DNA of 20,939 nt from Myxococcales bacterium (GCA_037441385.1 JBBISH010000112.1:1-20939); one strand, 5' to 3'. Counted from the first letter of the stretch, positions 1,374-18,036 are shown. The notes: generated by a model not told the origin, from the sequence alone. Made by a program: numbers and translations.

Positions 1374-1523
1374 TGGCGTCCGTGTGTGGTTTGATTTGGT
1401 GTGTGGTGTCCATGGGCCGGGCCGCACGTCCGGGGCAGTGGCGCTAGGTCTCAGGTTTTGCGGACAATTTGCCCGGTTCCCCACCTGGCATTACCAACCC
1501 GAAATTCGCGATGGGTCAAGCCG

Positions 1524-1544
1524 GGGTACAAAATGCCCCCCAAC
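1524..1544 (+). repeat. dispersed copy of the 21-bp motif
   Basis: GGGTACAAAATGCCCCCCAAC, 20/21 identical to 10495-10515. Confidence 0.8.
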
Positions 1545-1671
1545 TTCCACGCGCCGCCGCAATCACGCTCGGAAGTGTGGCTCCAACCTTGGCGCTGGCG
1601 AAACCATTGCCTTTTGGCGCGCCACAGCCAACGAACCCTTAGCCACCGCAAGCGGAGCACTCAAACTCTGC

Positions 1672-2085
1672 CACGACAGCCTGCCTCCCACGGCGCGCGA
1701 GCAGCTCAAGTGGTCGGCATTGCTGGCGATTAGCTCGATTGGCGAGGTGAACCTGCGCGCGCGGGTGGCGATGGCGGCGGTCAGCGAGGGCTGGCCGCTG
1801 GGCAAGGTGCGCGAGGTGGTGGCGCAGGCCCAGGGCGGCCGGGTGTGGGATACGGAGTCCGAGACGCCCGGCCTGCAGCTGCCCGAGCCCAAGCCCGCCG
1901 CCGCGCCGCAGCCCGGCCGCCTGGTGACCCGCACCGAGAAGTGGACCGAGGAAGTCGGCCAGTGGCAGCAGGAATTCGACCGCATCGACGCCAGCAAGCT
2001 GAGCAAGGTCCAGGTCGAGCGGGTGCGCGCGGCGGTGGCGACCCTGCGCGGGCAGCTGGATGCGGTGGAGAAGAGGCTGGGGTGA
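1672..2085 (+). pseudogene. probable 5'-truncated gene fragment, DUF1016_N/YhcG-N-like helical domain plus C-terminal coiled coil
   Basis: Only the 3' part of ORF 1363-2085 has gene-like GC3-rich codons. QLKWSALLAI..RARVAMAAVSEGWPLGKVREVV resembles the DUF1016 N-terminal pattern LSWSH..R..A..GWS..L. No convincing start or RBS; start coordinate approximate. Confidence 0.4.
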
Positions 2086-2090
2086 TGGGG
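1905..2090 (+). repeat. 186-bp direct repeat, copy 1
   Basis: Aligns without gaps to 3057-3242 with 3 mismatches (GAC/GAG, AGC/GGC, GTG/CTG). Confidence 0.95.
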
Positions 2091-2687: not shown

Positions 2688-3021
2688 CCTGGCCATCCTG
2701 GTCGACATGCTGCGCTTTGCTGGCGAAATGCTGACGATGCGCGAGCGCTTCACCTTGGTGCAGGTCGAGGCCGACGACGTGCTCACTTCGGCCATCCTGC
2801 ACAAGGCCATCATGCTGGGCGAGGCCGCCAACCGCGTATCGGCAGCGGGCCGCGAACGGTGGGCTTTGCCATGGCGCCACATGGTCGGCCTCCGCAACGT
2901 AGTAGTGCACGACTACGACGCCGTAGATCTCGAGGTCATTTGGGCGCTGGGCGAGGTCGAGTTACCGCGACTGGTCGCCCAGCTGCAGACCATCTTGCGT
3001 GACGCGGAGGACAAGAGCTGA
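2677..3021 (+). CDS. HEPN (DUF86) RNase toxin (HepT-like)
   Basis: 114 aa, TTG start. Has the RX4HXY motif (RNVVVHDY) within PWRHMVGLRN..DLEVIW, and LGEAA. Confidence 0.9.
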   Translation: MDRDLAILVDMLRFAGEMLTMRERFTLVQVEADDVLTSAILHKAIMLGEAANRVSAAGRERWALPWRHMVGLRNVVVHDYDAVDLEVIWALGEVELPRLVAQLQTILRDAEDKS

Positions 3022-3056
3022 GCAGTTTCTCGGCTTCGGGGGCAGATTCTGGCGGT

Positions 3057-3242
3057 GCCGCAGCCCGGCCGCCTGGTGACCCGCACCGAGAAGTGGACCG
3101 AGGAAGTCGGCCAGTGGCAGCAGGAATTCGAGCGCATCGACGCCGGCAAGCTGAGCAAGGTCCAGGTCGAGCGGGTGCGCGCGGCGCTGGCGACCCTGCG
3201 CGGGCAGCTGGATGCGGTGGAGAAGAGGCTGGGGTGATGGGG
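3057..3242 (+). repeat. 186-bp direct repeat, copy 2 (duplicated gene 3' end)
   Basis: Near-identical to 1905-2090 and includes the same stop codon. Confidence 0.95.
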
Positions 3243-3420
3243 AGGCAGGTCCGGGGCCTGCCGGATGGCGACCGCCCCGCTCGGCGACGCCGCTCGACGC
3301 AGCCGGCCGCAAACGCCACGCTTTGCGACCGCGACCTGACTGAGCTAGAACACCAACCAGAAACCTCCCTGATCCGGAGCAACGAAGGGACTTGCGGTCG
3401 AAAACCCGTGGATGCTTGGT

Positions 3421-3490: not shown

Positions 3491-4660
3491 CTAGGGCACC
3501 ACGCACGTCGAGTTTTTGGCCTTGCACTTGGCTTCGTCTTTGCACGCGAGCGAGCCGGCGCAGTCGGCGTCCGATAGGGCCGCGCAGCCCCAACCTTTCA
3601 ACTTGCACCGCCCCAATTCCGCGCATGCCTTCGAGGCCGCGCAGTCCGCGTTGGCGGTGGGGCGGCATTGGCCCGACATCGCGTGGCACTTGCCATCGTT
3701 CTTGCACAGAGCCAGCGCGGCACACACGGCATCGCTGGTGGCCTGGCAAGTGCCTCCGACCGCGCTGCAGCGCCCGAGCTCGGTACACATCGTAGTACCG
3801 GCGCAATCTGAGCTCGAAACTGCGACACACTTGCCAGACACCGCATGGCACAGCCCTTGGGTGGCACAGGCCAGAGTCCGGGCGCAGTCGGCGTCGGCCA
3901 CCGCCACGCACTGGCCCTCTTTGGCTCCACACAGGCCCAGGACTTGGCACCACTGCGACGGCAGGCAATCGGAGTTGCTGGCAGCCACGCACCGCGAGCC
4001 AGCGGCAGTACAGTATCCGGCCTGCGCGCACCACGCCGAGGCGGCGCAGTCCGAAGAGTTCGCGGCCACGCAAGCGCAGTCGCTTGCCGTGCAAAGCCCG
4101 TGATCGGCGCATACCTTGGCCGACTTGCAGTGACCATCGCTGGTCGCACCGCAGCGCTTGCCGCAAACCGCGCATGCGCCCTCGATGGCGCAATTGATGG
4201 ACTTTTGGCAGGCCGCGTCGCTTGTGGCGGTGCATGCGCCAGCCACCGCGCTGCACAACCCGTGGTAGACACACGCCGACCAGGTACCCGTGCAGTCCGC
4301 ATCGCTCAGGGCCAAACACAGGCCGTCGCTTGCGCTGCATGCCCCCTCGTTCTGGCACACCGTGGCCTTGAGGCACGCCTCCGAGCTGAACGCCCAGCAG
4401 CGCCCTCCCTGGACCTGGCAATTGCCAAGCGACCGGCAGTCTGAGCTGGCGGCACAGTCCGCGTCGGTAGTGGCCAGGCAGCCGCCGAGATTCTGGGTAC
4501 ACTGGCCGTGGGCGGTGCACGACGCCGTCTCGCGGCAGGGCACCTCGTCACTCCCGGTCGCGCCGTTGCAGCCAGACACGAGGGCGGCCCCGGCGCTGGC
4601 CACCAGAGTCACAAGCCAGACCGCTGCGATCCTCCAGAAACGCAGTATCTTTGTGGGCAT
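3491..4660 (-). CDS. Cys-rich tandem-repeat lipoprotein (13 x ~27 aa)
   Basis: Start reassigned to ATG 4660 (GAGG RBS, MPTKILRF..., lipobox VSG-C). 13 repeats of C-x5-C-x3-G-x-C-x6-C-x7. Confidence 0.85.
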   Translation of the reverse strand: MPTKILRFWRIAAVWLVTLVASAGAALVSGCNGATGSDEVPCRETASCTAHGQCTQNLGGCLATTDADCAASSDCRSLGNCQVQGGRCWAFSSEACLKATVCQNEGACSASDGLCLALSDADCTGTWSACVYHGLCSAVAGACTATSDAACQKSINCAIEGACAVCGKRCGATSDGHCKSAKVCADHGLCTASDCACVAANSSDCAASAWCAQAGYCTAAGSRCVAASNSDCLPSQWCQVLGLCGAKEGQCVAVADADCARTLACATQGLCHAVSGKCVAVSSSDCAGTTMCTELGRCSAVGGTCQATSDAVCAALALCKNDGKCHAMSGQCRPTANADCAASKACAELGRCKLKGWGCAALSDADCAGSLACKDEAKCKAKNSTCVVP

Positions 4661-4789
4661 AGCATCCTCACGTTCGGGAACCTGCGCACAAACCTGCCAC
4701 GCATACGTCGCGCTCCCCCCGTCGCCGGCAGTCCCCGCCGCTGACCCGCCAAGATCGCGACCGCCAAACCGGACCTTCCAGCCTTCGCC

Positions 4790-4955
4790 CGCCAGCCTAC
4801 GCCGCAGCCCGACCCGCGTCAACGCCGCACACTGGTCACCGGACAACCGAATTATTCTGTAAGATCGAACTCTTGACTCAGCCGTCCTTGGAGATGGACG
4901 GCGTCATGCTAGCCCGCTGCTTCAGCGGCTGGTCCCCTCAAAACAGCCGACATTG
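4790..4955 (-). ncRNA. structured intergenic element, copy A (IS110-end/bridge-RNA-like, putative)
   Basis: 4880-4952 matches 10773-10845 at 61/73 nt without gaps. Similarity continues to a shared GCCTACGCCG near 4795. Stems GCCGTCC/GGACGGC and CCGCTG/CAGCGG. Confidence 0.5.
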
Positions 4956-6173
4956 CTACTGTTCCGGGCCCCGCCGCTCCGCAAGAATCAACAGGTTCCG
5001 CGGCGTCACCTCGCGCGCACAGAACGTGCCCACCTGCACCCGATAGCCCGCCTCGGCCAGCGCCTGCGCCCGGTCCAGCACCAGCCACGCCTCCAGCGGC
5101 GCCCGGAACAGGCCGCGCACCAATTCGCGCCGCTGCACTTGGGCCAGCCGCCGCCAGCCCGCCGCCTCGTGGTGCGACCAGGTGCAGTCGCGGGGCAGCT
5201 CCAAGCCGTCCAGGGCCGCGAACTGCTGACAAAACTGGGCAAACGGCAGTCGCAGCCAGGGGCGCGGAAACGGCGGCATGGTGCGGTAGGTGCCACTGCC
5301 AGTCACGGTGCGCTGCAGCTCGTCGAAACCGAGCCGCCACGCCTGTTCTTGCTGCGCACGCACCAGGTCGCTGCCAGCGGCCACCAGCGGCTCGCGGTGG
5401 AGCAGATCCAGGTCAGTCTGCGTCAATTCAAGCTGTTGCAGACGGCCCCGGGTCGAGCGCGCCAGCTCGCCGCGGGTCAGGTTGTAGCAGCACGGCGCCA
5501 GCGCCACCCCGGCCACGCCGCGCGCCACCGCCGCCGCCAGCAGCGCCGCGTGCAGGTCGCCGCAGGCGTGCAGGGCCACCAACCACTGATCGTGGCTCAA
5601 TATCTCTGCCGTCGTCGGCCCCAGCACATTGGCCTGCACAAAGCGGGCGCGCAGCCCCAGGTGGTCGCACTCGGCCTGCCCGGCCTGCACCAGCACCGCG
5701 TCCCGCTCCAGCGCCAGCAATGTTCCGCCGCTGAGCCGGGCCAACTGCCGCCCCAAGTGGCTTTTGCCGGCGCACCAATCGACCAGCGCCGGCTCGCGGG
5801 GCAGGCGCGGCTGCACGGCGCGACAGAATCCCTCGATCTGCCTGACTTTCCGCCCAGGGATCCGCCGGCTCGCATCGGCGCCCAGCGGTCGGGGCGGACC
5901 CAGAGCCAGGTCAGGCAGCGCCGCGAGATCCCGTGCCCTTTGCGCCACCTGCTGCAGCCACAGGGGCGCCCGATCCAGCCACGGCAGCGCGAGGTCGCCC
6001 ACCTCGGCGTCGCTCAGCCCGTCGAGCCAGGTTGCCAGCTCGGGATGGGTCGCCTGCCAGCCGAGCACAGGTTCCACAAAGGGCTGCGGACGCCATAGAT
6101 ACCCGTACTGCTGCAGCAATTCCGTCAGCGCCGGCAGGCGCTCGCGGAGATTCAATGGCTCGGAGGTGGACAC
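4956..6173 (-). CDS. SAM-dependent methyltransferase (Methyltransf_32-like)
   Basis: 405 aa with motifs VDWCAGKSHLG, ALHACGDLH, APCCY and TPRNLLI. Confidence 0.85.
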   Translation of the reverse strand: MSTSEPLNLRERLPALTELLQQYGYLWRPQPFVEPVLGWQATHPELATWLDGLSDAEVGDLALPWLDRAPLWLQQVAQRARDLAALPDLALGPPRPLGADASRRIPGRKVRQIEGFCRAVQPRLPREPALVDWCAGKSHLGRQLARLSGGTLLALERDAVLVQAGQAECDHLGLRARFVQANVLGPTTAEILSHDQWLVALHACGDLHAALLAAAVARGVAGVALAPCCYNLTRGELARSTRGRLQQLELTQTDLDLLHREPLVAAGSDLVRAQQEQAWRLGFDELQRTVTGSGTYRTMPPFPRPWLRLPFAQFCQQFAALDGLELPRDCTWSHHEAAGWRRLAQVQRRELVRGLFRAPLEAWLVLDRAQALAEAGYRVQVGTFCAREVTPRNLLILAERRGPEQ

Positions 6174-6175
6174 GT

Positions 6176-6718
6176 TCAGCGCCGGGGCGCCTGCGGCAGC
6201 TTGTCCAACGTCAGCGGGCGGCCGGTGGCCTTTTCAAAGGCGGCCAAGAACTTGGCCAGCGCTGCGGTCAGCTGCGTCCGCGCCGGCGACGGGCCGGGAG
6301 CAAGCACCAGCGCCCCTCGCGCCACGCTCACGCGCAAAACGCCCTCCGGCGAAGCGTGCAGGGACGCGCCGTCCGGCAGCGGCTGCAGGCCCGAGCCCTT
6401 CCGATTGGCCAGCTGCTGGGCCAGCGCCAACAACTGCCGGCCCGCCGCACCCGAGGGCCAGGTCACCGCGTCGTTGTGGTTGAACTCCAGCGGCACGCCG
6501 CCAAAGTACCCCGAGTAGCGCAGCAGGCCATCGCCGTCCAGGGCGTACGACTCGATGAGTTGGTTGGGGTATTTCTTGCCGTCCTGGGGGTGCTCGACCT
6601 CGTACCCCAGCGACAGCACGGTCGTCGCAGGCGTCGCCTTGGGCGTGGCGTGGGCGACCTGAGGCAGCGCGCCGATCGTGACGCTCGCCAGACCAGAAAC
6701 CAGAAGCCGCCGTGGCAT
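6176..6718 (-). CDS. secreted hypothetical protein
   Basis: Start reassigned to ATG 6718 (GGGGGAG RBS). Signal peptide ending AHA. Stop codon is 2 bp from the methyltransferase start, implying an operon. Confidence 0.7.
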   Translation of the reverse strand: MPRRLLVSGLASVTIGALPQVAHATPKATPATTVLSLGYEVEHPQDGKKYPNQLIESYALDGDGLLRYSGYFGGVPLEFNHNDAVTWPSGAAGRQLLALAQQLANRKGSGLQPLPDGASLHASPEGVLRVSVARGALVLAPGPSPARTQLTAALAKFLAAFEKATGRPLTLDKLPQAPRR

Positions 6719-6853
6719 GGACTCCCCCTTGCATGGACCCGGCGCCGGCGTCGCCACCCGCAAAAACACGAACGCCGGTGCGACTCTGCAGCCCCACCGG
6801 CGTTCGCCATTTCTGCGGACCCTTGGCTAACGCGCGGGTCCGTCAGGCACGGA

Positions 6854-7285
6854 TCAACCGCGCTCCAGCTTCTCGACGGCCAGCTCGAGCTCTTCGACGT
6901 TGACGTCGGTGCCCTTGCCGTCCAGGGTGAAGCCCTTCCACTTGGTCGGCCAGCCCTCGAAGAAGTTGTAGCGCATGATCTCGCTGCCGTCGTCGGCGCA
7001 GAGGATCACGGAGCCCGACTTGCGCTGCACCTTGCCCTCGACGACGGCCTTGCGCCATTCCCAGAGCTCAGTGTTGTTGATGTAGCCGCGCTTGAAGGTG
7101 ATGTTGCTGTACTTGGTGCGGCCCGGGCGCTTACGCAGCACCATGTCGTCGCCGTCCTGGTACTCGATGATCTCGGTCTCGCTGTCCAGGCCTTCCACGT
7201 TGCGGAAAGCACCCTGGGTGACGCCTTCGATCTCGATCTTGAAGTTGAAGTTACCGATGTGGTCAAACGCACGACGGTTCGGCAT
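6854..7285 (-). CDS. phage tail tube protein, T4 gp19 / eCIS (Afp1/5-like) family
   Basis: 143 aa with motifs FNFKIEIEG, F..VEGL..E.EIIEYQDG, RKRPGRTKYSNITFKRG, LWEW, WPTKWKG..LDG and EELELAVE. GGAG RBS. Confidence 0.92.
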   Translation of the reverse strand: MPNRRAFDHIGNFNFKIEIEGVTQGAFRNVEGLDSETEIIEYQDGDDMVLRKRPGRTKYSNITFKRGYINNTELWEWRKAVVEGKVQRKSGSVILCADDGSEIMRYNFFEGWPTKWKGFTLDGKGTDVNVEELELAVEKLERG

Positions 7286-7374
7286 CTGCAGTCTCCGGCC
7301 CCCTTCGAGGGCCTAGGCAAGTTGGCCAGGCAGCCCATGCTGCGCAGGCATTCGACGGTATCGCCTGGTCTGCC

Positions 7375-7390
7375 GCGTAGCGCGTGCCAA
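7375..7390 (-). promoter_or_regulatory. putative sigma54 (-24/-12) promoter for the tube gene
   Basis: Minus strand TTGGCACGCGCTACGC: perfect -24 TGGCACG and GG-N10-GC spacing, about 90 bp upstream of the ATG. The -12 box is imperfect. Confidence 0.4.
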
Positions 7391-7549
7391 ACCCCGAGGA
7401 ACGTCTGCACCCTACGCTGCGCGGGCCGGACATGCAAGCGAAATTGGTGGACGTGCGTGCGGCCGGGGTCGCCAGGCTCCAGCCTGCGGCGTGGCTTGCC
7501 CCGGTCGACCCCAGCAAGACCGACGACGACCGACAGGCAGCTGATTTTC

Positions 7550-8698
7550 CTAGTCGTCCGCCGCCTGGACCACCGTGTTCACCGCCTTCTCGAAGGCGCC
7601 CAGGTCCAGGTTGCCGTTGCCGCTGGGCTGAAAATACATGATCGGCGAGCCGTTCTTGGCAAACCCGTAGCCGCTGTTGCGGATCTCGGAGCCCTTGAAT
7701 TTGCTGGCATGCCCCTCGTTCATCTTGGTCCAGGCATCGACTTGGGCGGTGTCTTGGAGCACCGGGATCGTCTTGACCATCTTGATGAGGTCGGCGGGGT
7801 TCGACGACTGCTTGTCGGCGATGAGCACCATCACCGTGTCGCTGTGGCCGGTGTTGTTGGCCTGATCCTGCAGCTTTTGCATCAATTGGGCCTGCGAGCG
7901 GCACGACGCGCACCAGTCCGAGACCAGCGCCACGACGATCTTCTTGCCTTTGAAAGCCTCGAGGCCATAGCTGGTGTTGTAGAACGGGCTGCCGGGGTTG
8001 ATGTCTTGCAGCTGGAAGGCCGGCAGGTCGTGGAAGGTCTTGACGCACTGCGCCTTTTCGTCGCCGATGCTGGTGATGTCGCCCTTGAAGGCAATCTGCG
8101 CCAGGTCCACGTTGAAGTGGCGGCCCAGGTACTTCATGTTGACGATGCCGCCGAACTGCGGCTGCAGGGTCCGGTTGCGCAGGATCGCTTTGGCCATTCC
8201 GGCTTCGGGCTGACCCAGGGCTTCCAGCGGGAGGCTGCCGGCGGCGCCGACCGACGCGTAGATCACTTCGCTGCTGCTGGGTTCCTTGCTGCTCCAGCCT
8301 GGGCACAGGGCCAATTCGCTGCTGCCGTCGGCCTTGGCGACCTTGGCGCGCGCCCAGAATTTCACACCTTTGAGCTGCAGGCCCTCGCCCTGAAAACCGG
8401 CCTGGTACTCCAGTTCGAGCTTGCAGGTGCCGTCGGGCTGGGCGACCGAGACCGTCAGCGCCGGCACACAGGCCAACCCACCTGGATCCTTGTTGATTTG
8501 GTGCGTCATCGTCGCGACGGCCTTGAGGCCCTTGTACGAAACGGTGACGTCGGTATTGTCGATGCTGGCAGCGAATCCACCGGTGGCGGTCAGGGGCGTA
8601 TCCACGGGCGCGACTTGGGTTACGCCCGCGCTGTCGCACCCCAGCCAGAAGGCGCCCATCGCCAACCCAAGCAACACGGTCCCAACCTTGCCGCGCAT
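7550..8698 (-). CDS. lipoprotein with C-terminal thioredoxin-like (TlpA/AhpC-TSA-like) domain
   Basis: Lipobox WLG-C. C-terminal LPAFQLQDINPGS..FKGKKIVVALVSDWCASC (CxxC)..PVLQD. GGAGG RBS. Confidence 0.85.
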   Translation of the reverse strand: MRGKVGTVLLGLAMGAFWLGCDSAGVTQVAPVDTPLTATGGFAASIDNTDVTVSYKGLKAVATMTHQINKDPGGLACVPALTVSVAQPDGTCKLELEYQAGFQGEGLQLKGVKFWARAKVAKADGSSELALCPGWSSKEPSSSEVIYASVGAAGSLPLEALGQPEAGMAKAILRNRTLQPQFGGIVNMKYLGRHFNVDLAQIAFKGDITSIGDEKAQCVKTFHDLPAFQLQDINPGSPFYNTSYGLEAFKGKKIVVALVSDWCASCRSQAQLMQKLQDQANNTGHSDTVMVLIADKQSSNPADLIKMVKTIPVLQDTAQVDAWTKMNEGHASKFKGSEIRNSGYGFAKNGSPIMYFQPSGNGNLDLGAFEKAVNTVVQAADD

Positions 8699-8789
8699 CC
8701 AGACCTCCCGCGCAGGCCATACCGGCTTCGGCGACCGCGCTGAGACACGCTAACATGGGCCGCGGACTGGCGAAAGTGCCAGGTGGCGC

Positions 8790-10154
8790 TCAACGTGCCG
8801 CAGGTGTGGCGAATTCGGGCAAAGCCAGTGCATAATCAAAGGCTTCGGACCCCACGCGCCGCTGCCGCAACCGCCCATCGGCGCCGTAGACGTCGACCAC
8901 CGGCAGCCCGGCCACCGCCGGCAGCAGGCGCAGCATCTGCGCGGCGTCCCAGTCGCTGGCGTCGACCCGCACCACCAGCAACTCGGGGTGTGCTTTGGCG
9001 AATTCCTCAAGCTGGACCGAGAGCTTCTGGCACGGCGCACACCAGGTAGCCCAGTAATCCACCAGCGCCACCTGTCCCGGCGGCAGCAGGGCGGCGATCT
9101 CGGGCTGGGGCAGGTCGCCGGGCCGGGCGGGCACGGGCTCGGCCTTGGCCGGATCGCCCAGCGGCTGACTCCACGACAGGCCCACAAAGACCCAGTAAGC
9201 GGGCGGGGTTTGCAGCCCCAACACATCCCGCCACAGGGGCTTGCGGCCGGTCAGGTCCAGCGCGATCTGGTCGGTCAGCTGCCCGCGCAGCGAGGCGGTC
9301 AGGTCCACGTATTCGCCGCCCACGCTGGCCGAGTCGACGCGCACGCCCTGCCAATCGAGTTCACTGGGCATTTTGCGCTGCAGCCAGTCGACCGACAGGC
9401 TCGCCTGCAGCCGCTTGGGCCAGAGCTGCCCCGAAAGCCCGCCGCTGACCGCGGTCTCGCGCTCCCAGCGGAACCCGTCGTTGCAGTCGGCCAGCGGCGT
9501 GCGGGTGCGCAGCGCGGCAAACCAGCCCAGCTGCTCGACAAAGCGGCCGTAGAGCTCGGCGTCGGCCAATAGCCACCACGTGCCGCGGCCCAGCGACAGG
9601 GTCTTGTCCAGCTGCTGCCCCGGTTGCAGTTGCGTCACCTGCAGTTTGGAGACGTAGGGCCCGGTCGGCGCCGCCAGGCCCGCCGTCAGCTGCAGGCGCG
9701 GCAGCCAGCGGCCGTCCAGGCCCAGGAGTCGAAAAACGTCTGAACGCGCCCGAAGTTCCAAGTCCCCCAAGCCGTAGTCGTCTGTGTGGCGACTGTCCGA
9801 ATCGCTGCGGATGCGCCCGCTGGGCAGCAGCAGGCTGGCGCCCAGGCCGCTGGCGTGGTCGATCGCGGCGCTCAACGTAACCAGTTGAAGCGAAATCGAA
9901 AAGTGATCATAGCTGGGCAGCGCCCGCTTGCCGCCGTAGGGCTGGTCGCCGTAGGCGTAGGCATAGGTAAGCCCAGCGCGCACGCGGGTTTGTGGGGCGG
10001 CGGCGCTGCCGTCCAAGGCGCGCGCCATGTCGGTGTCTCCCACCGGGAGAGCGGGGTTGCCTCAGGCCGAGCACTGGGCCTGGGCCGGTGCGCTCCAGCC
10101 CGCCAGCACGGTCAGCGCCAGCGCGACAAGGGCAGCCAAATTCCAAGGTTTCAT
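8790..10154 (-). CDS. putative selenoprotein: signal peptide + CxxU + outer-membrane beta-barrel (Phenol_MetA_deg/transporter-like) + C-terminal thioredoxin
   Basis: ORFs 10062-10154 and 8790-10043 are in the same frame, separated only by TGA 10062-10064: ...AQAQCSA-TGA-GNPALPVGDTDM. GGAG RBS before ATG 10154. Barrel motifs GLGD, PTG, LGRG and amphipathic strands. Trx motif VDYWATWCAPC. 454 aa in total. Confidence 0.8.
10036..10064 (-). promoter_or_regulatory. UGA plus bacterial SECIS-like hairpin
   Basis: UGA, 11-nt spacer GGCAACCCCGC, then stem-loop UCUCCC-GGU-GGGAGA with G/U in the apical loop. Confidence 0.7.
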
Positions 10155-10231
10155 GGGGTGCTCCGCGGGCAGCTGCGCCGACGGGAGTCTGGCATTGCCG
10201 GTCCAGTGCGGCAAGGAGGGCAGGCGTGCGC

Positions 10232-10518
10232 GTTGGGGGGCAATTTCTACCCCGCAATCCGCAAAGCATTTTGGGCGTCCCGGCCCGGCGCACGCCAGGT
10301 TGGGGGGCATTTTCTAAGAGTAGGGGGCAATTTCTGAACGCCACGCCGGGCCGTCGCGCTGCGGCCGCCGGTCGTCGCAAGTGCCGGCGGCGCACTGGCC
10401 TCGTCCTCCCGGCGGTGGCGACGCGGCACCGCGCCGCCACCCCTTCGGGGCCAGCATCGCTGACGCGGGATGCGTGTTTTCCAGCAATTCCGGAGGGTAG
10501 AAAATGCCCCCCAACCTG
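10232..10518. repeat. cluster of GGGTAGAAAATGCCCCCCAAC-type motifs, including a perfect 21-bp inverted repeat
   Basis: Copies at 10232-10252(-), 10296-10316(-), 10321-10336(-, degenerate) and 10495-10518(+). 10296-10316 and 10498-10518 are exact reverse complements. Confidence 0.85.
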
Positions 10519-10639
10519 CGGCTTAAGGTGCGGTGGACCAAGATGGGCAGAACGGTCTACGACTGGACACCCATGCGCCAAGACAGGCTGTGCAGGCAGC
10601 CGCATGGGGGTGCGCAAAGGGAAGTGTCTGATTCCCGTC

Positions 10640-10668
10640 AAAAAAACCCAGCCAATGAATTGGCGGGC
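10640..10668 (-). terminator. intrinsic terminator
   Basis: Minus strand CCC-GCCAA-TTCA-TTGGC-T-GGG followed by TTTTTTT. Confidence 0.75.
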
Positions 10669-10679
10669 TATCATTGCGC

Positions 10680-10850
10680 CGTCGGCCTACGCCGACGTCC
10701 CGGTTCACTTCATCGCGGGTACGTATGAGCGGGGAAGCACTGAATTGTCCGGCACTATCGCGTCCTCGACCTAGCCGTCCTTGGCGAAGGACAGCGTCAT
10801 GGTGGCCCGCTGCTCCAGTGGCTGGGCCACCCTAACCAGCCGACACTCCA
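10680..10850 (-). ncRNA. structured intergenic element, copy B (IS110-end/bridge-RNA-like, putative)
   Basis: Homologous to copy A. Stems GGTGGCCC/GGGCCACC and GCTGTCC/GGACGGC (a G-U pair on the minus strand only). AT-rich upstream and followed by a terminator. Confidence 0.55.
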
Positions 10851-10951
10851 TAATTTTTTGACCCAATCAGCGCCTATTAAGGGCAAACAACTCCCGGTAG
10901 CTGGGATGCGACTTCTAGGCCAAGCACGCCAACGGTATGGCACGGAACGGC

Positions 10952-11545
10952 CTACACCGCCGCCGCCAGCTCGCGCAGCGCCTCGACGTCGGCGTAGATC
11001 TCGGCCACCGTCAGCTCCACCTCGGCCCCGGTCAGGCGCAGGGTCTCGCCATCCCCGCAAGCGCGGAAGGTCCAGCTGCCGTCGGCGTTGCGGGCAAAGT
11101 GCTCGACCAGGTTGCGATCTTGGTTGACCAGCAGGTAGTCGCACAGGCTGGGCAGGCGGCGGTACAGCTCGAACTTGCCGCCGCGATCGTACATTTCCGT
11201 TGTGGGCGACAGCACTTCCACCAGCACCGCCGGGTTGATCACGCCGTTGGGGTCGCGCGGGTCGGTCTGGAGCGGCCCGCACACCACACTGGCGTCTGGG
11301 TAGCAGGCGTCGCCCAGCAGAGGGATGACGATGCGCAGCTCGGAGTTGAACGGCCGACAGGGCTTGCCTGCCAGGACCCGGCGCAGGGCGGCATAGGCGT
11401 TGCCGGCCAGGTGGGCGTGGACGATGGATCCCCCCGTCATCGCAAAGATTTCCCCGCTGTGGAACTCCAGCTTGACCGGGCTACGGGCGCAGGCGTCCAG
11501 GTAGTCGGCGTAGGTGGTGGGCAGGGTTTTGCCGGCTTGGGCCAT
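10952..11545 (-). CDS. Uma2 family PD-(D/E)XK endonuclease-like protein
   Basis: Start reassigned to ATG 11545. Motifs EFHSGEIFAMTGGS..H, YPDASVVC, LVEVLSPTTEMYDRGGKFELYRRLPSL.DYLLVNQD. Confidence 0.92.
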   Translation of the reverse strand: MAQAGKTLPTTYADYLDACARSPVKLEFHSGEIFAMTGGSIVHAHLAGNAYAALRRVLAGKPCRPFNSELRIVIPLLGDACYPDASVVCGPLQTDPRDPNGVINPAVLVEVLSPTTEMYDRGGKFELYRRLPSLCDYLLVNQDRNLVEHFARNADGSWTFRACGDGETLRLTGAEVELTVAEIYADVEALRELAAAV

Positions 11546-11584
11546 GGGCGCCTCGGCGGGCCGGCGGGGGCCGGTGTAGGTAGG

Positions 11585-11613
11585 AGTGTAGGGACGGCGG
11601 GGGCTTCCAGCAA
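11585..11613 (-). promoter_or_regulatory. putative sigma70 promoter for the Uma2 gene
   Basis: TTGCTG-17 bp-TACACT on the minus strand, 40 bp upstream of the ATG. Confidence 0.45.
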
Positions 11614-11704
11614 GCAGAAGCGAGGCTTGCCCCAAGGCCACGCCTGGCCCATCATCGCCCGGCGCGCGGCCGACCGCGGCGACCGGACCGCCAGGACCGA
11701 GACC

Positions 11705-12508
11705 ATGCAACCCCATACGAATACGCAGACTTTTGCAGGACGGGCCACGCACGTCGCGGAGTTGGGCCACGGCCCGGCGGTGGTGCTGATCCACGGCTCG
11801 GCCGACAAGCCGACCACCTGGCTGCCGGTGATGCAGACACTGGCCGGGCAGTTCCACTTGTTTGCGCCGGGGTTGCCGCCCATCGCCCCCGAAGAGGTGG
11901 CCGCGGGCAAGCTGGCGCTGGACCTGGACCTGCCCTGGCTGGACGACGTGCTGACGTCCACGGGCGCGCGAATTTTGGCGGCGCATTCGTACGGAGCGCT
12001 TCTGGCGTTGAGGTGGGCGCTGGCGCATCCCGGCCGCCTGGACCGCTTGGTGCTGATCGAGCCCATCTGTTGGGGCATGGTGGCCGACGCCGGCACAGCC
12101 CACCAAAGGCTGGGCGAGCTCAGGGATTTTTGCCTACACGCCTTTGCCCGCGGCGAGGTGGAGCCGGCGATGCACTGGCTGGTGGACTACTGGAACGGCC
12201 AGGGCTTCTTTGCCGGCCTGCCCGAGCGGGTCCGCGCTGGCCTGCTGAGCCTGTACGGGCGCACCTGGGCCGAGGTGGCGAGCGGCGGCGGCGACCAGAC
12301 CCATGCCGCAGAGGTTTGCACGTTGACCACGGATGTGCGCCTATTGGCTGGGGAACACACTACCGCCGAGTCGCTGGCGGTCATGCGCGCCCTGGCCGCC
12401 GCCCTGCCCCGCGCGCCCCTGCAGGTGCTGCAAGGCGCGACCCACCAGTGCCTGAAAAGCCACGCGGCGCAGGTGGCCGCGGCGATCGCCGGCACTCCAG
12501 AACCCTAG
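11705..12508 (+). CDS. alpha/beta fold hydrolase
   Basis: Start reassigned to ATG 11705. GPAVVLIHGS, nucleophile elbow AHSYG, LVLIEP and a C-terminal His (GATH). Confidence 0.88.
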   Translation: MQPHTNTQTFAGRATHVAELGHGPAVVLIHGSADKPTTWLPVMQTLAGQFHLFAPGLPPIAPEEVAAGKLALDLDLPWLDDVLTSTGARILAAHSYGALLALRWALAHPGRLDRLVLIEPICWGMVADAGTAHQRLGELRDFCLHAFARGEVEPAMHWLVDYWNGQGFFAGLPERVRAGLLSLYGRTWAEVASGGGDQTHAAEVCTLTTDVRLLAGEHTTAESLAVMRALAAALPRAPLQVLQGATHQCLKSHAAQVAAAIAGTPEP

Positions 12509-12526: not shown

Positions 12527-13321
12527 ATGGGCGATCACGTCCAAGTTCTGCGCGAAGGCGACCTGGCCGAAGTGCGCCTGACCCGGCCCGACAAGCGCAA
12601 TGCGCTCAGCTTCGCCATGCTGGGCGACCTGATCGACGCGGCCGATACCCTGAGTAAGGACAAGGCGTTGCGCGCCGTGCTGCTGACCGGGGCCGGCGAC
12701 TGCTTCAGCGCGGGCATCGACCTGGGCGACCTGCGCGACAAGAAACAAGCCCTGCGGGCCGCGTGGGAGCTGGCGCAGCCGACCGCCAACCTCTTTCAGC
12801 GCGCTTTCCTATGTTTTCGCGATTTGCCAGTGCCGGTGCTGGCGGCCATCCACGGCCACTGCCTGGGCGCCGGGCTGCAGCTAGCCCTGGCGGCGGACTT
12901 CCGCATCGCCACGCCCGACGCGCAACTGGCGATCATGGAAGCGAAATGGGGCCTGATCCCGGACATGGGCGCCAGCGTGACCCTGCGCGGCCTGCTTGGC
13001 GCCGACAAGGCGCGCGAGCTGATGATGACGGCGCGGATCGTGACGGGAGAGACCGCGGGCGCACTGGGCCTGGTTAGTCACGTCGACGCGGATCCCCGCG
13101 GCCGGGCGTTGGCGCTGGTCGACGAACTGCGCACCCGCTCGCCCGACGCGATCGCCGCCGCCAAACGCCTGTGCAATGCCATGGAAACTCAAGGTGCTTC
13201 GGCCACGTTGGGCCTGGAACGCCGCTTGCAGACGCGCCTGCTGCTGGGCAAGAACTTTGGCATCGCCGCCAAGCGCGCCAAGCAACCCGAGCTGAGCTGG
13301 AAGCCGCGCAGCTTGGGCTGA
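12527..13321 (+). CDS. enoyl-CoA hydratase/isomerase (crotonase family)
   Basis: Motifs RPDKRNAL, FSAGIDL, IHGHCLGAGLQLALAADFRIA and EAKWGLIPDMG. AAAGGTG RBS. Confidence 0.95.
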   Translation: MGDHVQVLREGDLAEVRLTRPDKRNALSFAMLGDLIDAADTLSKDKALRAVLLTGAGDCFSAGIDLGDLRDKKQALRAAWELAQPTANLFQRAFLCFRDLPVPVLAAIHGHCLGAGLQLALAADFRIATPDAQLAIMEAKWGLIPDMGASVTLRGLLGADKARELMMTARIVTGETAGALGLVSHVDADPRGRALALVDELRTRSPDAIAAAKRLCNAMETQGASATLGLERRLQTRLLLGKNFGIAAKRAKQPELSWKPRSLG

Positions 13322-13425
13322 CGCAAGCGTGGCAATCGGCCAACGCATTGGGGCGGGGCCCTGGTCGATTTCGGGCGACTTGCCCGCCAAGAACGGGTAT
13401 CCTGTTCGGCGTTTGCGGTTCGCCC

Positions 13426-15942
13426 ATGAACCCGCTGGCGCCGACCTACCCGATGAACACCCGCCCTGCCCGCCGCCCCCTCGCGTTCCGTGTACCCATT
13501 CGCACCAGCGGCTTGGCCCTGGCGGCAATGACCAGTCTGTGGCTGGCGACCGCCTGCTCCGACGGAGCGGGGAGTTCTGGCGCGGCCAGCGACACCAGCG
13601 CCGACAGCGGCCACTTGGACTCCACCGCCCTCACCGACGGCAGCGGCGGCGGCGTCACGGCCAACGCGAATGGCCCCAGCGTGGTCACCTGCCCCAAGGC
13701 CCTGCCCGCGCCCAAAGCGGCCGGCAGCTGCGACGTAAGCAAGGGCTCGACCACCCGCGTGATCCGCGGCACCGTCCTGGCCACCGACCACGTGTTCGTC
13801 GGCGGCGAAGTGGTCATCGACAGCAAGGGCAACATCACCTGCGCCGCTTGCGATTGCTCGGCGACCGACGGCTACAGCGGCGCCACCACGCTGCAATGCG
13901 GCGACGCCGTGATCTCGCCGGCGCTCATCAACAGCCACGATCACATCACCTTTGCTCAAAACGCGCCCAAGGCCCACAGCCAGAAGTACGACCACCGCCA
14001 CGAATGGCGCAAGGGCGCCAACGGCAAACAGAAGATTACTGTCCCCGGCGCCCCCAACGGCACCACCGACGAAGTGACCAGTTGGGGCGAGCTGCGCTTT
14101 GTCATCGGCGGCGCGACTTCGACGGTCGGCTCGGGCGGCGTCAACGGCATGCTGCGTAACCTGGACAAGTCCGGAACGATGCAGGGCAATTTGGGCAAGA
14201 CGCCCGTCGATTTCGAGACGTTCCCCCTGGGCGACTCAAGCCCAGACATCAGCAAACCACTGCCGACCACCTGCACCTACAAGATCGCGGTCACCGACCC
14301 GGAAGTCGCCAAAATGACCTCGTTCTTCCCACACATGAGCGAGGGCGTCGACCAGTCGGCCCACAACGAATTCGACTGCACCGACGGCGTCAACGCCCAG
14401 GCCAACTATGAGCGGCCGCAGACCGCGCTCATCCACGCCGTGGGTCTGCGCGCCGCCGACGTCTACCTGGCTGCCAAGACTGGGGTTTCACTGATCTGGT
14501 CGCCGCGCTCGAACATTGACCTGTACGGCTTCACCGCCAACGTTTCGCTCTTTGCCAACTTGGGCGTGCCGATCGCGCTCGGCACCGACTGGAGCGCCTC
14601 GGGCAGTATGAACATGCTCCGCGAACTGGCCTGCGCCGACAGCTTCAATCAGAAGAACCTGGGCGGATTCTTTACGGATTACCAGCTGTTCATGATGGTC
14701 ACCGGCACCGCGGCCGACGCCGCCAAGATGGGCGACGTCTTGGGCCGCATCGGTGTGGGGCGTCCAGCGGACATCACCGTCTTTGCCAGCCACGGCAAGG
14801 CGCCCTACGCGGCGGTAGTGCGCGCCGCCGTTGAGGATGTGGCGCTGGTCTTGCGTGGCGGCGTGGTCCTGCACGGCGACGCGGCCCTGGTCGACGCCCT
14901 CTCCAGCGACGGCGGCGCCGGCTGCGAGGCCCTGAAGAACTGCCTGTCCGGCAAAAAGCTCTGCGCCAAGCGCGAGTTTGGTCAAGACACGGCGGCCCTG
15001 GCCAAGACCATTGGCACCCCGTACGACCTGTACTTCTGTGGTGTTCCGCAAGGCGAACCGTCGTGCGTTCCGTCGCGCAGCGGCGTGTTCACCGGCGAGC
15101 CCAGCGCGACTGACAAAGACGGCGACGGCATCGAAGACAGCAAAGACCTGTGCCCCACGGTGTTTTCGGCGATTCGGCCCATGGACGGCGGCCAGCAGAT
15201 CGACAGCGACGGCGACGGCAAGGGCGACAGCTGCGACGTGTGCCCGCTGACGGCCAACAGCACGGATTGCAGCAAGGTGACGGTCCCCGTCGACGTGCCA
15301 GACACCACCTCGGGCGGCGACACTTCAGGCGGCGGCGCAGACGCGGGCAGCAGCGACGTCCAGCCCACCGCGGCAACGATCCCCGAGCTGAAGAAGATGG
15401 CCGCGGGCACGGTAGTCGAGCTCAAGGGCCTGTGTGTCACCGCCATCCGCACGGTGACCAGTGGCAGCACGGTGTGGGTGCAGCAGCCCGGCCTGACCAG
15501 CGACGGCGGCTACGTGGTGTACAGCAAGACCGCGGTGAGCAACAAGGTCGGCGACCAAATCGACGTGATCGGCGCGGTGGGCGACTTCAAAGGCCTGCCC
15601 GAGCTGCTGACCCCGGCCATCACCACCAAGGGCACCTGCAGCGAGGTCATCCTGCCCGTCGCGGTCTCGCCCTCGGACATCGCCACCGACGGCGCCAAGG
15701 TCAAGACGCTGATGAGCATGCTCGTAGAAGTGAGCGATGTGACCGTGACCGCCGCCGCCGCGACCGCCAAGGACGACTTCTACGTCACCGGCGACCTGCG
15801 CATCTCGCCGTTTGTGTACGCCTTTGACGGCACCAAGTACCCGGTGGGGACGCAGTGGAAGAGCATCCGCGGCGTGCTGGACTGGTACACGGACCACAGC
15901 AAGATCAATCCGCTGTCGGCGGCTGATCTGGTCGAGCCATAG
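13426..15942 (+). CDS. secreted/lipoprotein metal-dependent amidohydrolase with TSP3-like Ca-binding repeats and C-terminal OB-fold-like domains
   Basis: Lipobox-like LATA-C. Metal motifs INSHDH, PHMSEG, LIHAVG and ALGTDW. Repeats DKDGDGIEDSKDLCP and DSDGDGKGDSCDVCP. C-terminal VWVQ..VGDQIDVIG.VGDFKGLPEL. Start is 13426 or 13453. Confidence 0.85.
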   Translation: MNPLAPTYPMNTRPARRPLAFRVPIRTSGLALAAMTSLWLATACSDGAGSSGAASDTSADSGHLDSTALTDGSGGGVTANANGPSVVTCPKALPAPKAAGSCDVSKGSTTRVIRGTVLATDHVFVGGEVVIDSKGNITCAACDCSATDGYSGATTLQCGDAVISPALINSHDHITFAQNAPKAHSQKYDHRHEWRKGANGKQKITVPGAPNGTTDEVTSWGELRFVIGGATSTVGSGGVNGMLRNLDKSGTMQGNLGKTPVDFETFPLGDSSPDISKPLPTTCTYKIAVTDPEVAKMTSFFPHMSEGVDQSAHNEFDCTDGVNAQANYERPQTALIHAVGLRAADVYLAAKTGVSLIWSPRSNIDLYGFTANVSLFANLGVPIALGTDWSASGSMNMLRELACADSFNQKNLGGFFTDYQLFMMVTGTAADAAKMGDVLGRIGVGRPADITVFASHGKAPYAAVVRAAVEDVALVLRGGVVLHGDAALVDALSSDGGAGCEALKNCLSGKKLCAKREFGQDTAALAKTIGTPYDLYFCGVPQGEPSCVPSRSGVFTGEPSATDKDGDGIEDSKDLCPTVFSAIRPMDGGQQIDSDGDGKGDSCDVCPLTANSTDCSKVTVPVDVPDTTSGGDTSGGGADAGSSDVQPTAATIPELKKMAAGTVVELKGLCVTAIRTVTSGSTVWVQQPGLTSDGGYVVYSKTAVSNKVGDQIDVIGAVGDFKGLPELLTPAITTKGTCSEVILPVAVSPSDIATDGAKVKTLMSMLVEVSDVTVTAAAATAKDDFYVTGDLRISPFVYAFDGTKYPVGTQWKSIRGVLDWYTDHSKINPLSAADLVEP

Positions 15943-17920: not shown

Positions 17921-18036
17921 GCCGCGGTCCGTGCCGTTCGCACATGACGCCGCGCAAGAGAATCGCTATCCTGGCCGCTGTGCACGACACCCAAGCGCAT
18001 TGGCCCAGCGCGCCCGCGCGATGTCCAAGGAGACCC

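What the first reader, a model, noticed from the sequence alone, without database searches (positions are those of the whole stretch)
4790..10850. Two diverged copies of a ~170-nt structured element resembling an IS110 non-coding end (bridge RNA) with no transposase nearby
Seen: 4880-4952 and 10773-10845 are 61/73 identical without gaps. Weaker similarity continues about 90 nt to a shared GCCTACGCCG, with a highly variable middle section. Both copies are intergenic and in the same orientation. One stem substitution keeps pairing (G-U) only on the minus strand, which points to a minus-strand RNA. From memory and unverified, the string GGTTAGGGTGGCC..GAGCAGCG..ACCATGACGCTGTCC..GGCT..GTGCCGGAC resembles the leader upstream of some IS110-family transposases. 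No DEDD recombinase is in the window. Inference: orphan or domesticated bridge-like guide RNAs with different variable loops, a non-autonomous element, or a new cis-regulatory RNA.
Basis: partly seen in the sequence, partly recalled or inferred. Interest (0 to 1): 0.75.

Follow-up and report, generated by a model that had tools for sequence, protein, structure and literature searches.

The report
Palindromic mobile repeats, not bridge RNAs
The two look-alike intergenic stretches are old copies of a small hairpin-rich repeat that has spread, without a transposase gene of its own, through the genomes of a group of myxobacteria; this is an ordinary kind of selfish DNA and not an orphan guide RNA.

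Summary
The repeat is real: 4880-4952 and 10773-10845 are 61/73 identical, and chance does not explain it. The shared unit is a 76-nt module made of two hairpins joined by an invariant linker. The stems show compensatory changes.

A covariance model finds a third module in the window, inverted, at 10629-10704. Copy B is therefore an inverted doublet. The shared GCCTACGCCG is the hairpin of that second module, which is only a decayed remnant in copy A.

The only relatives found are 11 loci in three Myxococcota MAGs.
- Eight of them have the same doublet inside a 224-281 bp unit.
- That unit has 14-bp terminal inverted repeats, and flanks that usually read TAA or TTA.
- Within one MAG the copies are 97-100% identical at unrelated sites.
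- Seven of the 11 contigs break inside the element.

No transposase of any family, DEDD included, lies near any copy. Rfam and BLAST against plasmids, phages and E. coli gave nothing.

Verdict: decayed members of an apparently undescribed MITE-like, non-autonomous repeat family. The IS110 bridge-RNA reading is not supported. Strand evidence is mixed. Any role as a terminator or in mRNA stability is inference only. Low interest.

The parts
4876..4951 (-). Copy A, first module: hairpin Ha, invariant linker, hairpin Hb.
   Evidence: Covariance model R1 scores 80.4 bits, E 7e-26. It is 89% identical over 66 nt to the MAG copies L008/L009/L024.
4816..4875 (-). Copy A spacer between the first module and the remnant of the second. 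The end next to the module is shared with copy B and with L008/L024; the rest is not alignable.
   Evidence: Alignments.
4775..4815 (+). Copy A, decayed remnant of the inverted second module. It includes GCCTACGCCG at 4795-4804. The limits are approximate.
   Evidence: GCCTACGCCG lies at the same distance from the core as in copy B. In copy B that string is the loop and stem of the second module's hairpin. The model gives no significant match here with filters off, so the assignment is inference from position.
10769..10844 (-). Copy B, first module.
   Evidence: R1 scores 74.7 bits, E 6e-24.
10705..10768 (-). Copy B spacer between the two inverted modules.
   Evidence: It lies between the two model matches. 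It cannot be aligned with copy A except near the first module.
10629..10704 (+). Copy B, second module in inverted orientation. It holds GCCTACGCCG at 10685-10694.
   Evidence: R1 scores 34.9 bits, E 1.5e-10 with filters off. BLAST gives 81-83% over 58-60 nt to the second modules of L006, L018, L036 and L050.
10640..10664 (-). Terminator-like site on the minus strand: the Ha-equivalent hairpin of the second module followed by a run of seven T (10646-10640).
   Evidence: It is the only terminator-like site in 4400-11200. The hairpin folds at -12.5 kcal/mol with z -1.62, which is weak. The T-run is absent from the MAG relatives.
4956..6173 (-). Upstream neighbour of copy A: a Methyltransf_32 gene with its TAG stop at 4956-4958.
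   Evidence: Pfam PF13679, E 1.6e-19. GC3 is 0.85. Stop codon checked.
3491..4660 (-). Downstream neighbour of copy A: a lipoprotein-like gene. Its ATG is at 4660 and its N-terminus ends ...LVSGC.
   Evidence: Translation and sequence. No Pfam family matched.
10952..12106 (-). Upstream neighbour of copy B: an open frame with a Uma2 domain and a TAG stop at 10952-10954.
   Evidence: Pfam PF05685, E 5.5e-31. Stop codon checked.

Best explanation
The two copies are old, diverged members of a family of small, non-autonomous, palindromic mobile repeats (MITE-like) found in a lineage of Myxococcota.

The conserved unit is a 76-nt module. It has a short hairpin with a UGAA-type loop, then an invariant single-stranded linker, then a 9-bp hairpin. 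A full element carries two such modules in inverted orientation.

In the best-preserved relatives the doublet sits inside a 224-281 bp unit. That unit ends in 14-bp terminal inverted repeats and is flanked mostly by TAA or TTA.

Inferred mechanism: a transposase encoded elsewhere in the genome recognises the ends, and probably the module, and moves the unit to T-W-A sites. In a 67% G+C genome such sites lie mostly at stop codons and between genes.

The window copies have lost recognisable termini and are probably immobile. Copy B keeps both modules; copy A keeps one and a remnant. Read through from the upstream minus-strand genes, their hairpins may stabilise or end those transcripts, and copy B has a hairpin followed by U7. 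That is a side effect and not the reason the sequence exists.

Shown: the repeat, the module structure, the inverted doublet, the multi-copy dispersal and the absence of a transposase.
Inferred: mobilisation in trans, the target duplication, and any effect on transcripts.
For: Family and structure:
- The genome-contig scan returned 52 loci. Eleven carry the module at 80-96 bits; the best of the other 41 scores 21 bits. All 11 come from three Myxococcota/Myxococcales MAGs.
- A second, inverted module lies next to the first in 8 of the 11 loci and in window copy B.
- On 16 distinct module sequences, 95.1% of cells pair and 7 of 17 pairs show changes on both sides. The covariation score is 0.278 against 0.135 +/- 0.016 in shuffles (0 of 500 reach it) and at most 0.084 with slid partners.

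Signs of mobility in the relatives:
- Terminal inverted repeats match 13 of 14 in L006. The complete units are 281 bp (L006 3829-4109) and 224 bp (L050 3970-4193).
- The three bases abutting the ends are TAA or TTA at 6 of 10 ends, and 9 of 10 begin with T. The background frequency of TAA plus TTA in these loci is 0.43%.
- In both complete units one such triplet is the TAA stop codon of a flanking gene: peptidase C92 in L006 and the IMS/DinB-type polymerase in L050.
- Within one MAG, copies at six unrelated sites are 96.7-100% identical, and similarity stops at the element ends. Between MAGs identity is about 82%.
- Seven of the 11 contigs break inside the element.

No coding capacity or known match:
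- None of 122 open frames of at least 180 codons in the window and the 11 loci matches a transposase family.
- Whole elements fold into long stem-loops. Copy B reaches -99.5 kcal/mol with z -3.47. L006 reaches -129.8 kcal/mol.
- Copy A is closer to a copy in another genome (89% to L008) than to copy B (81-84%), as expected of a mobile family.
Against: - The window copies have no detectable terminal inverted repeats: 0 matches at up to 3 mismatches.
- Their left arms resemble neither each other nor the MAG arms. Their membership therefore rests on the internal modules alone.
- The target duplication is not proven. In the two complete units the flanks agree in only 2 of 3 positions (TAA/TAG and TTG/TTA).
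- No autonomous partner with the same ends was found or could be looked for.
- The module is more conserved across genomes than the arms. That could mean the module has a function of its own.
- The subfamily closest to the window (L008, L009, L024) has a single module, and its ends are poorly defined.
- The covariation alignment was fitted to the model, and its rows are related copies.
- The terminator-like hairpin in copy B is weak (z -1.62). The scan that found it gave fewer sites than its shuffles did: 1 against 4.3.
Confidence: 0.75

Rival explanations
1. The copies are REPIN-like. The two-hairpin module would be a large REP unit, and inverted doublets of it would be moved as single-stranded DNA hairpins by a RAYT-type (HUH Y1) enzyme. 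They would not be cut at terminal inverted repeats by a DDE transposase.
For: - The modules come as inverted doublets with a spacer.
- The hairpins covary while the linker is invariant, as expected for a site recognised in single-stranded form.
- The module is conserved across four genomes while the outer arms differ.
- G-U evidence favours neither strand.
Against: - The best-preserved copies are bounded by 14-bp terminal inverted repeats about 60-100 nt outside the modules, and copies stop being alike exactly there.
- No Y1 transposase was seen in the window or the 11 loci, though only about 8 kb or less per locus was examined.
- Single-module copies are also multi-copy (L008, L009, L024).
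Confidence: 0.1
2. The copies are a family of functional RNAs, either cis-regulatory or small RNAs, transcribed from the minus strand. The conserved module would be the active part and the variable spacer would give specificity. The mobile copies in the MAGs would then be a side branch.
For: - The hairpins show compensatory changes.
- The linker is invariant in four genomes.
- Both window copies lie between minus-strand genes in the same orientation.
- Copy B ends in a hairpin followed by U7 on the minus strand.
- The MITE review held in the library notes that MITEs can give rise to small RNAs (passages read in PMC10969869).
Against: - No Rfam family matches.
- No promoter-like site lies in 4400-11200.
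- Copy A begins 4 nt after a stop codon, so it has no room for a promoter of its own.
- The genes next to the copies are unrelated from copy to copy.
- The inverted doublet presents the module on both strands.
- Fold z-scores do not prefer a strand.
- The U-run is absent from all relatives.
Confidence: 0.1
3. The copies are orphan or domesticated bridge or seek RNAs of the IS110 family, or the end of an IS110 element that lost its recombinase.
For: - Small-RNA genes left behind by, or moving apart from, an IS110-family element are known. [quoted passage not shown]
Against: - None of 122 open frames near 13 copies matches PF01548, PF02371 or any other transposase family.
- The relatives have terminal inverted repeats, whereas IS110 elements typically lack them (PMC11208160 passage).
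- The consensus structure is two plain hairpins with 4-nt loops, not two internal loops.
- The element is a symmetric inverted doublet.
- BLAST found no similarity to 72,556 plasmids, 5,426 E. coli genomes or 50,697 phage records, many of which carry IS110-family elements.
Confidence: 0.03
4. The conserved core encodes a 9-residue peptide on the minus strand (ATG at 4907 and at 10800) that acts as a leader or micropeptide.
For: The ATG and the length are shared by copy A, copy B and L008. The last three residues are the same in all three.
Against: - In the other MAG copies the same ATG opens a 56-codon frame with no stop at the shared place.
- The inverted second modules have ATA, ATT or ATC in place of the ATG.
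- Differences between copies are compensatory in the hairpin, not synonymous.
- Copy A has no clear ribosome-binding site.
Confidence: 0.02

Closest known systems
Bacterial MITEs in general, such as the QMITE elements of Coxiella and the pneumococcal RUP/BOX/SPRITE repeats as described in the review PMC10969869 (passages read); Correia elements of Neisseria (recalled)
   Same: - The units are small (224-281 bp) and have no coding capacity.
- The best-preserved copies have terminal inverted repeats.
- Copies sit in intergenic positions, are multi-copy, and are near-identical at unrelated sites.
- Their transcripts would fold into very stable stem-loops.
- Direct repeats at the flanks fade with age, as the review notes.
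   Different: - The elements are G+C-rich rather than AT-rich.
- The most conserved part is an internal pair of inverted two-hairpin modules, not the termini.
- No parent IS is known.
- The window copies have lost their termini.
REPINs/BIMEs: inverted doublets of REP sequences mobilised by RAYT transposases (recalled; cited only in the reference list of PMC12288879)
   Same: They are inverted doublets of a palindromic unit separated by a spacer, dispersed in intergenic DNA, and often lie just after genes.
   Different: - The unit here is 76 nt with two hairpins and a 17-nt invariant linker, far larger than a REP.
- The relatives carry outer terminal inverted repeats.
- No RAYT gene was seen.
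[quoted passage not shown]
   Same: It is a short structured sequence present both in several linked copies and in copies unlinked to any transposase gene.
   Different: - ssr9 shares its flanking boxes with a DEDD-encoding IS in the same genome.
- Here no DEDD gene and no shared boxes were found, and the ends are true inverted repeats.
Tourist-like MITEs of the PIF/Harbinger superfamily, such as mPing (PMC2836001; passages read). The related bacterial IS5-type elements with 3-bp TNA duplications are recalled only.
   Same: The flanking triplet is TAA or TTA.
   Different: - That is a eukaryotic family.
- The duplication here is not proven.
- No transposase link was tested.

Membership tests
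IS110-family bridge RNA / non-coding end | It lies inside an element that encodes a DEDD recombinase (Pfam PF01548 plus PF02371). | tested here: not met
   None of 58 window frames and none of 64 frames in 11 related loci (all of at least 180 codons) matches any transposase family at E<=1e-5. Flanks of up to 4 kb were examined; seven contigs end inside the element.
IS110-family bridge RNA / non-coding end | The element typically lacks terminal inverted repeats and excises without a scar (PMC11208160 passage). | tested here: not met
   Related full-length copies carry 14-bp terminal inverted repeats, 13 of 14 matching in L006. The window copies themselves show none.
IS110-family bridge RNA / non-coding end | The RNA has two internal loops that pair with target and donor DNA. 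| tested here: not met
   The consensus structure is two simple hairpins with 4-nt loops and one bulge. Complementarity of a guide to a donor or target could not be tested because neither is known.
IS110-family bridge RNA / non-coding end | Sequence or profile similarity to described bridge or seek RNAs or to IS110 ends. | tested here: inconclusive
   No Rfam match reached threshold, and none at E<=10 covers the cores. BLAST against plasmids, E. coli genomes and phages found nothing. I did not check whether Rfam 15 holds bridge-RNA models, and ISfinder is not on hand.
MITE (miniature inverted-repeat transposable element) | Small size and no transposase gene. | tested here: met
   Complete units are 224 and 281 bp. 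No transposase domain was found.
MITE (miniature inverted-repeat transposable element) | Terminal inverted repeats. | tested here: inconclusive
   Met in the relatives. Six loci match the terminal motif exactly (L002, L006, L018, L036, L039, L050). L027 carries it with one mismatch. Not met in the window copies: 0 matches at up to 3 mismatches, and the arms are not alignable.
MITE (miniature inverted-repeat transposable element) | Target-site duplication. | tested here: inconclusive
   Flanks are TAA or TTA at 6 of 10 ends, against a background of 0.43%. The two units with both flanks agree in only 2 of 3 positions.
MITE (miniature inverted-repeat transposable element) | Many copies at unrelated sites, with young copies nearly identical. 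| tested here: met
   One MAG has six sites with 96.7-100% identity and unrelated flanks. Seven of 11 contigs end inside the element. The window has two elements (three modules) in 21 kb.
MITE (miniature inverted-repeat transposable element) | A related autonomous IS with the same ends in the same or related genomes. | not tested
REPIN / REP-RAYT | Inverted doublets of a palindromic unit. | tested here: met
   Second inverted modules are present in 8 of 11 loci and in window copy B.
REPIN / REP-RAYT | A RAYT (Y1 HUH) gene in the genome, itself flanked by the repeats. | not testable with these tools
   The source genome is not available. None was seen in the window or the 11 loci.
Intrinsic terminator (copy B only) | A G+C-rich hairpin followed directly by a U-run downstream of a gene on the same strand. 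| tested here: met
   The site is at 10664-10640 on the minus strand, about 290 nt after the Uma2 stop. The hairpin is weak at -12.5 kcal/mol with z -1.62. Function was not tested.

The most novel reading that the evidence does not exclude
The invariant linker with its two covarying hairpins may not be mere filler of a MITE. It could be the recognition unit of a so far undescribed mobilisation system in Myxococcota, read in single-stranded DNA or RNA form. That would be a large two-hairpin REP analogue, with the inverted doublet as the mobile hairpin. The 60-65 nt spacer that differs between copies could then carry copy-specific information.
Probability: 0.1. Interest if true: 0.6.

Novelty: new member of a known kind. 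Interest (0 to 1): 0.25.

Why it matters
- The result removes a tempting false lead, an orphan bridge RNA, and replaces it with a concrete anatomy of module, doublet, termini and target triplet.
- The family appears undescribed. Four full-text searches found no paper on MITEs or REP-type repeats in myxobacteria. The held library omits most subscription journals.
- The family breaks MAG assemblies in this lineage: 7 of 11 contigs end inside it.
- It inserts right at stop codons, so it is relevant to annotating 3' ends and to binning and assembly of these genomes.
- Beyond that it is ordinary selfish DNA.

Tried and rejected
- **Rfam.** The gathering-threshold scan of the whole window gave 0 matches. 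The E<=10 scan of 4600-11100 gave 5 weak matches. Only anti-hemB (16.1 bits against a gathering score of 49.5) touches the element. The E<=10 scan of L006 3700-4250 gave 8 weak matches, all far below gathering.
- **BLAST, distant mode.** The L006 element was searched against plasmids. Window 10600-10900 was searched against plasmids, E. coli genomes and phages. None gave a match.
- **Mini-ORF on the minus strand.** Rejected.
- **Relics of terminal repeats in copy B that I thought I saw by eye.** Not supported. There were 0 matches at up to 3 mismatches, and arm alignments scored no better than shuffles.
- **A 29-nt similarity between the flank of copy B and the unique flank of L008.** Five of 500 shuffles reach it. 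It led nowhere: tblastx shows no shared genes between the window and any locus apart from the element itself.
- **Strand assignment from G-U pairs and fold energies.** Mixed.
- **Promoter scan.** 0 sites.
- **Search for the terminal repeat motif in all 52 loci.** It was found only at the elements themselves.
- **Not done.**
  - R-scape is not available, so the count of structure pairs was used in its place.
  - ISfinder is not available.
  - I did not send translations of the element to the protein collections.
Full report
**Observation.** Windows 4880-4952 and 10773-10845 are 61 of 73 identical without gaps. The longer pair 4846-4952 / 10739-10845 is 81 of 107 identical. Two motifs drawn from the core match only these two places in the window at up to three mismatches, where shuffles expect 0.09 and 0.00 matches. 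GCCTACGCCG is shared at 4795-4804 and 10685-10694, at nearly the same distance from the core in both copies.

**Setting.** The window is 67% G+C. Pfam hits, third-position G+C and direct reading fix the neighbours.
- Copy A begins 4 nt after the TAG stop of a minus-strand Methyltransf_32 gene (4956-6173). It lies about 220 nt upstream of a minus-strand lipoprotein-like gene whose ATG is at 4660.
- Copy B lies 107 nt after the stop of a minus-strand Uma2-domain frame (stop at 10952-10954). About 900 nt with no convincing coding signal lie between that stop and the start of the thioredoxin-domain gene (8790-10043, minus), and copy B sits within this stretch.

Both copies are therefore intergenic and co-oriented, as reported.

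**Known families.** Rfam gives nothing at gathering thresholds for the whole window. At E<=10 nothing covers the cores. BLAST in its sensitive mode finds no similarity in 72,556 plasmid records, 5,426 E. coli genomes or 50,697 phage records.

**Relatives elsewhere.** I scanned genome contigs once with a 21-base pattern (18 specified bases) that both copies share. It returned 52 loci. A covariance model built from eight distinct core sequences separates them cleanly. Eleven loci score 80-96 bits and the best of the other 41 scores 21 bits.
- All 11 loci come from three MAGs labelled Myxococcota or Myxococcales: L008, L009 and L024; L018, L027, L029, L036, L039 and L050; L002 and L006.
- The window's own copies were not among the hits, so the source genome is not in that collection.
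- Seven of the 11 contigs end inside the element. That is the usual signature of a multi-copy repeat that short-read assembly cannot resolve.

**Anatomy.** The shared unit is a 76-nt module. Its parts, in order:
- a short hairpin (three outer C-G pairs, a bulge, five inner pairs and a four-base loop);
- a linker that is invariant or nearly so in all first modules;
- a 9-bp hairpin.

On 16 distinct module sequences, 95.1% of cells pair and 7 of 17 pairs carry changes on both sides. The covariation score is 0.278 against 0.135 +/- 0.016 in column shuffles (0 of 500 reach it), and at most 0.084 when partners are slid. Two caveats apply: the alignment was fitted to the model, and the rows are related copies.

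**A third module in the window.** The same model also matches the opposite strand directly beside the first module. This holds in 8 of the 11 loci and in the window at 10629-10704 (+), at 34.9 bits and E about 1e-10 with filters off.
- A full element is therefore an inverted doublet of the module.
- In copy A only that fragment survives, and the model finds no second module there.
- The 'highly variable middle section' is the 60-65 nt spacer between the two modules.

**Mobile units in the MAGs.** In the MAG copies other than L008, L009 and L024, the doublet lies inside a unit with 14-bp terminal inverted repeats, matching 13 of 14 in L006. Two complete units measure 281 bp (L006 3829-4109) and 224 bp (L050 3970-4193).
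- Copies within one MAG are 96.7-100% identical over 141-250 nt. Similarity ends exactly at the terminal repeats, and the flanking genes are unrelated. Between MAGs identity is about 82%.
- The three bases outside the ends are TAA or TTA at 6 of 10 ends. Those triplets make up 0.43% of positions in these loci.
- In both complete units one such triplet is the TAA stop codon of a neighbouring gene.
- The two units with both flanks agree in only two of three positions. A 3-bp duplication is therefore plausible but not shown.

**No transposase.** None of 122 open frames of at least 180 codons matches any transposase family at E<=1e-5. The set was 58 frames from the window and 64 from the 11 loci. 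The neighbours include a radical-SAM enzyme, an IMS/DinB-type polymerase, histidine kinases, a molybdopterin oxidoreductase and a glycosyltransferase.

**What it is.** These features fit a non-autonomous, palindromic mobile repeat: a MITE in the usual sense, with a REPIN-like inner doublet. The definition is as summarised in passages of the review PMC10969869. The window copies are old members.
- They are only 76-84% alike.
- Copy A is closer to a copy in another genome (89% to L008) than to copy B.
- Their arms no longer align with each other or with the MAG arms.
- No terminal repeat is detectable.

I infer that a transposase encoded elsewhere moves intact units to T-W-A sites.

**Effects on the host.** Whole elements fold into long stem-loops on either strand.
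- Copy B reaches -99.5 kcal/mol with z -3.47 on the minus strand, and -89.9 kcal/mol with z -2.40 on the plus strand.
- The 86-nt cores do not prefer a strand.
- G-U evidence is split: one substitution favours the minus strand and another favours the plus strand.

On the minus strand, copy B ends in a hairpin followed by seven U about 290 nt after the Uma2 stop. The hairpin is weak, and the U-run is absent from all relatives. A role as the Uma2 terminator, or as a 3' stabiliser of the methyltransferase message for copy A, is possible but only inferred.

**The IS110 idea.** According to passages of PMC11208160, IS110 elements encode a DEDD recombinase, typically lack terminal inverted repeats, and carry a bridge RNA with two internal loops. 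Here no DEDD gene is near any copy, the relatives have terminal inverted repeats, and the consensus fold is two plain hairpins.

Small-RNA genes unlinked to their IS110-family element do exist; ssr9 of ISPpu9 is one (PMC12288879, abstract and passages). The idea was therefore reasonable, but nothing here supports it. The recalled sequence resemblance could not be checked against ISfinder.

**Rejected side readings.** The nine-codon minus-strand ORF is not conserved.
- The same ATG opens a 56-codon frame in other copies.
- The ATG is absent from the second modules.
- The differences between copies are compensatory in the hairpin.

**Novelty.** Four full-text searches were run. The three aimed at myxobacterial repeats returned no paper describing MITE or REP-type repeats in myxobacteria. 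The fourth covered the IS110 and bridge-RNA literature. The library omits most subscription journals, and older descriptions of myxobacterial repeats may exist. I rate this a new member of a known kind and of low interest. The open point is whether the unusually conserved two-hairpin module is a recognition unit in its own right.

**Left unchecked.** ISfinder, the complete source genome and any transcript data were not available.

Noticed in passing
window 10296-10518, plus ~10232-10254 and 1522-1552: A perfect 21-nt inverted pair (10296-10316 + and 10498-10518 -) bounds about 223 bp, 110 nt from copy B. The same motif, a G-run followed by CATTTT, also occurs alone at about 10232-10254 (+) and 1522-1552 (-). 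It looks like a second, unrelated MITE-like family, and the roughly 900-nt gene-poor stretch may be a nest of repeats.
   Followed up: partly
window 10062-10154 (-): A 30-codon ORF with a signal-peptide-like N-terminus and a four-residue tail lies just upstream of the thioredoxin-domain gene 8790-10043 (-). It was read from the sequence.
   Followed up: no
window 1905-2090 and 3057-3242: A 186-nt direct repeat at 98.4% identity, 1152 nt apart, lies inside two minus-strand open frames (1563-2324 and 2913-3344) that have no Pfam match.
   Followed up: no
window 17944-20937 (+), runs off the end: A frame of at least 998 residues, cysteine-rich and highly repetitive, has Dicty_CTDC repeats and a run of 12-nt tandem repeats at 18247-18407. 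Together with the TSP_3 repeat in 13171-15942, this fits a myxobacterial origin.
   Followed up: no
L029 1309-1518 and L050 5345-5553: Another repeat in the same MAG, 210 nt at 96.7% identity. In L029 it directly abuts the end of the element studied here, so repeats cluster there too.
   Followed up: no
window 3491-4660 (-): The lipoprotein-like gene downstream of copy A contains four diverged copies of a 60-nt internal repeat (3729, 4053, 4215, 4461) and matches no Pfam family.
   Followed up: no
L006 4110-4112 and L050 4194-4196: In both complete MAG elements the terminal repeat directly abuts the TAA stop codon of a neighbouring gene. This suggests insertion at, or duplication of, stop-codon triplets.
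   Followed up: partly
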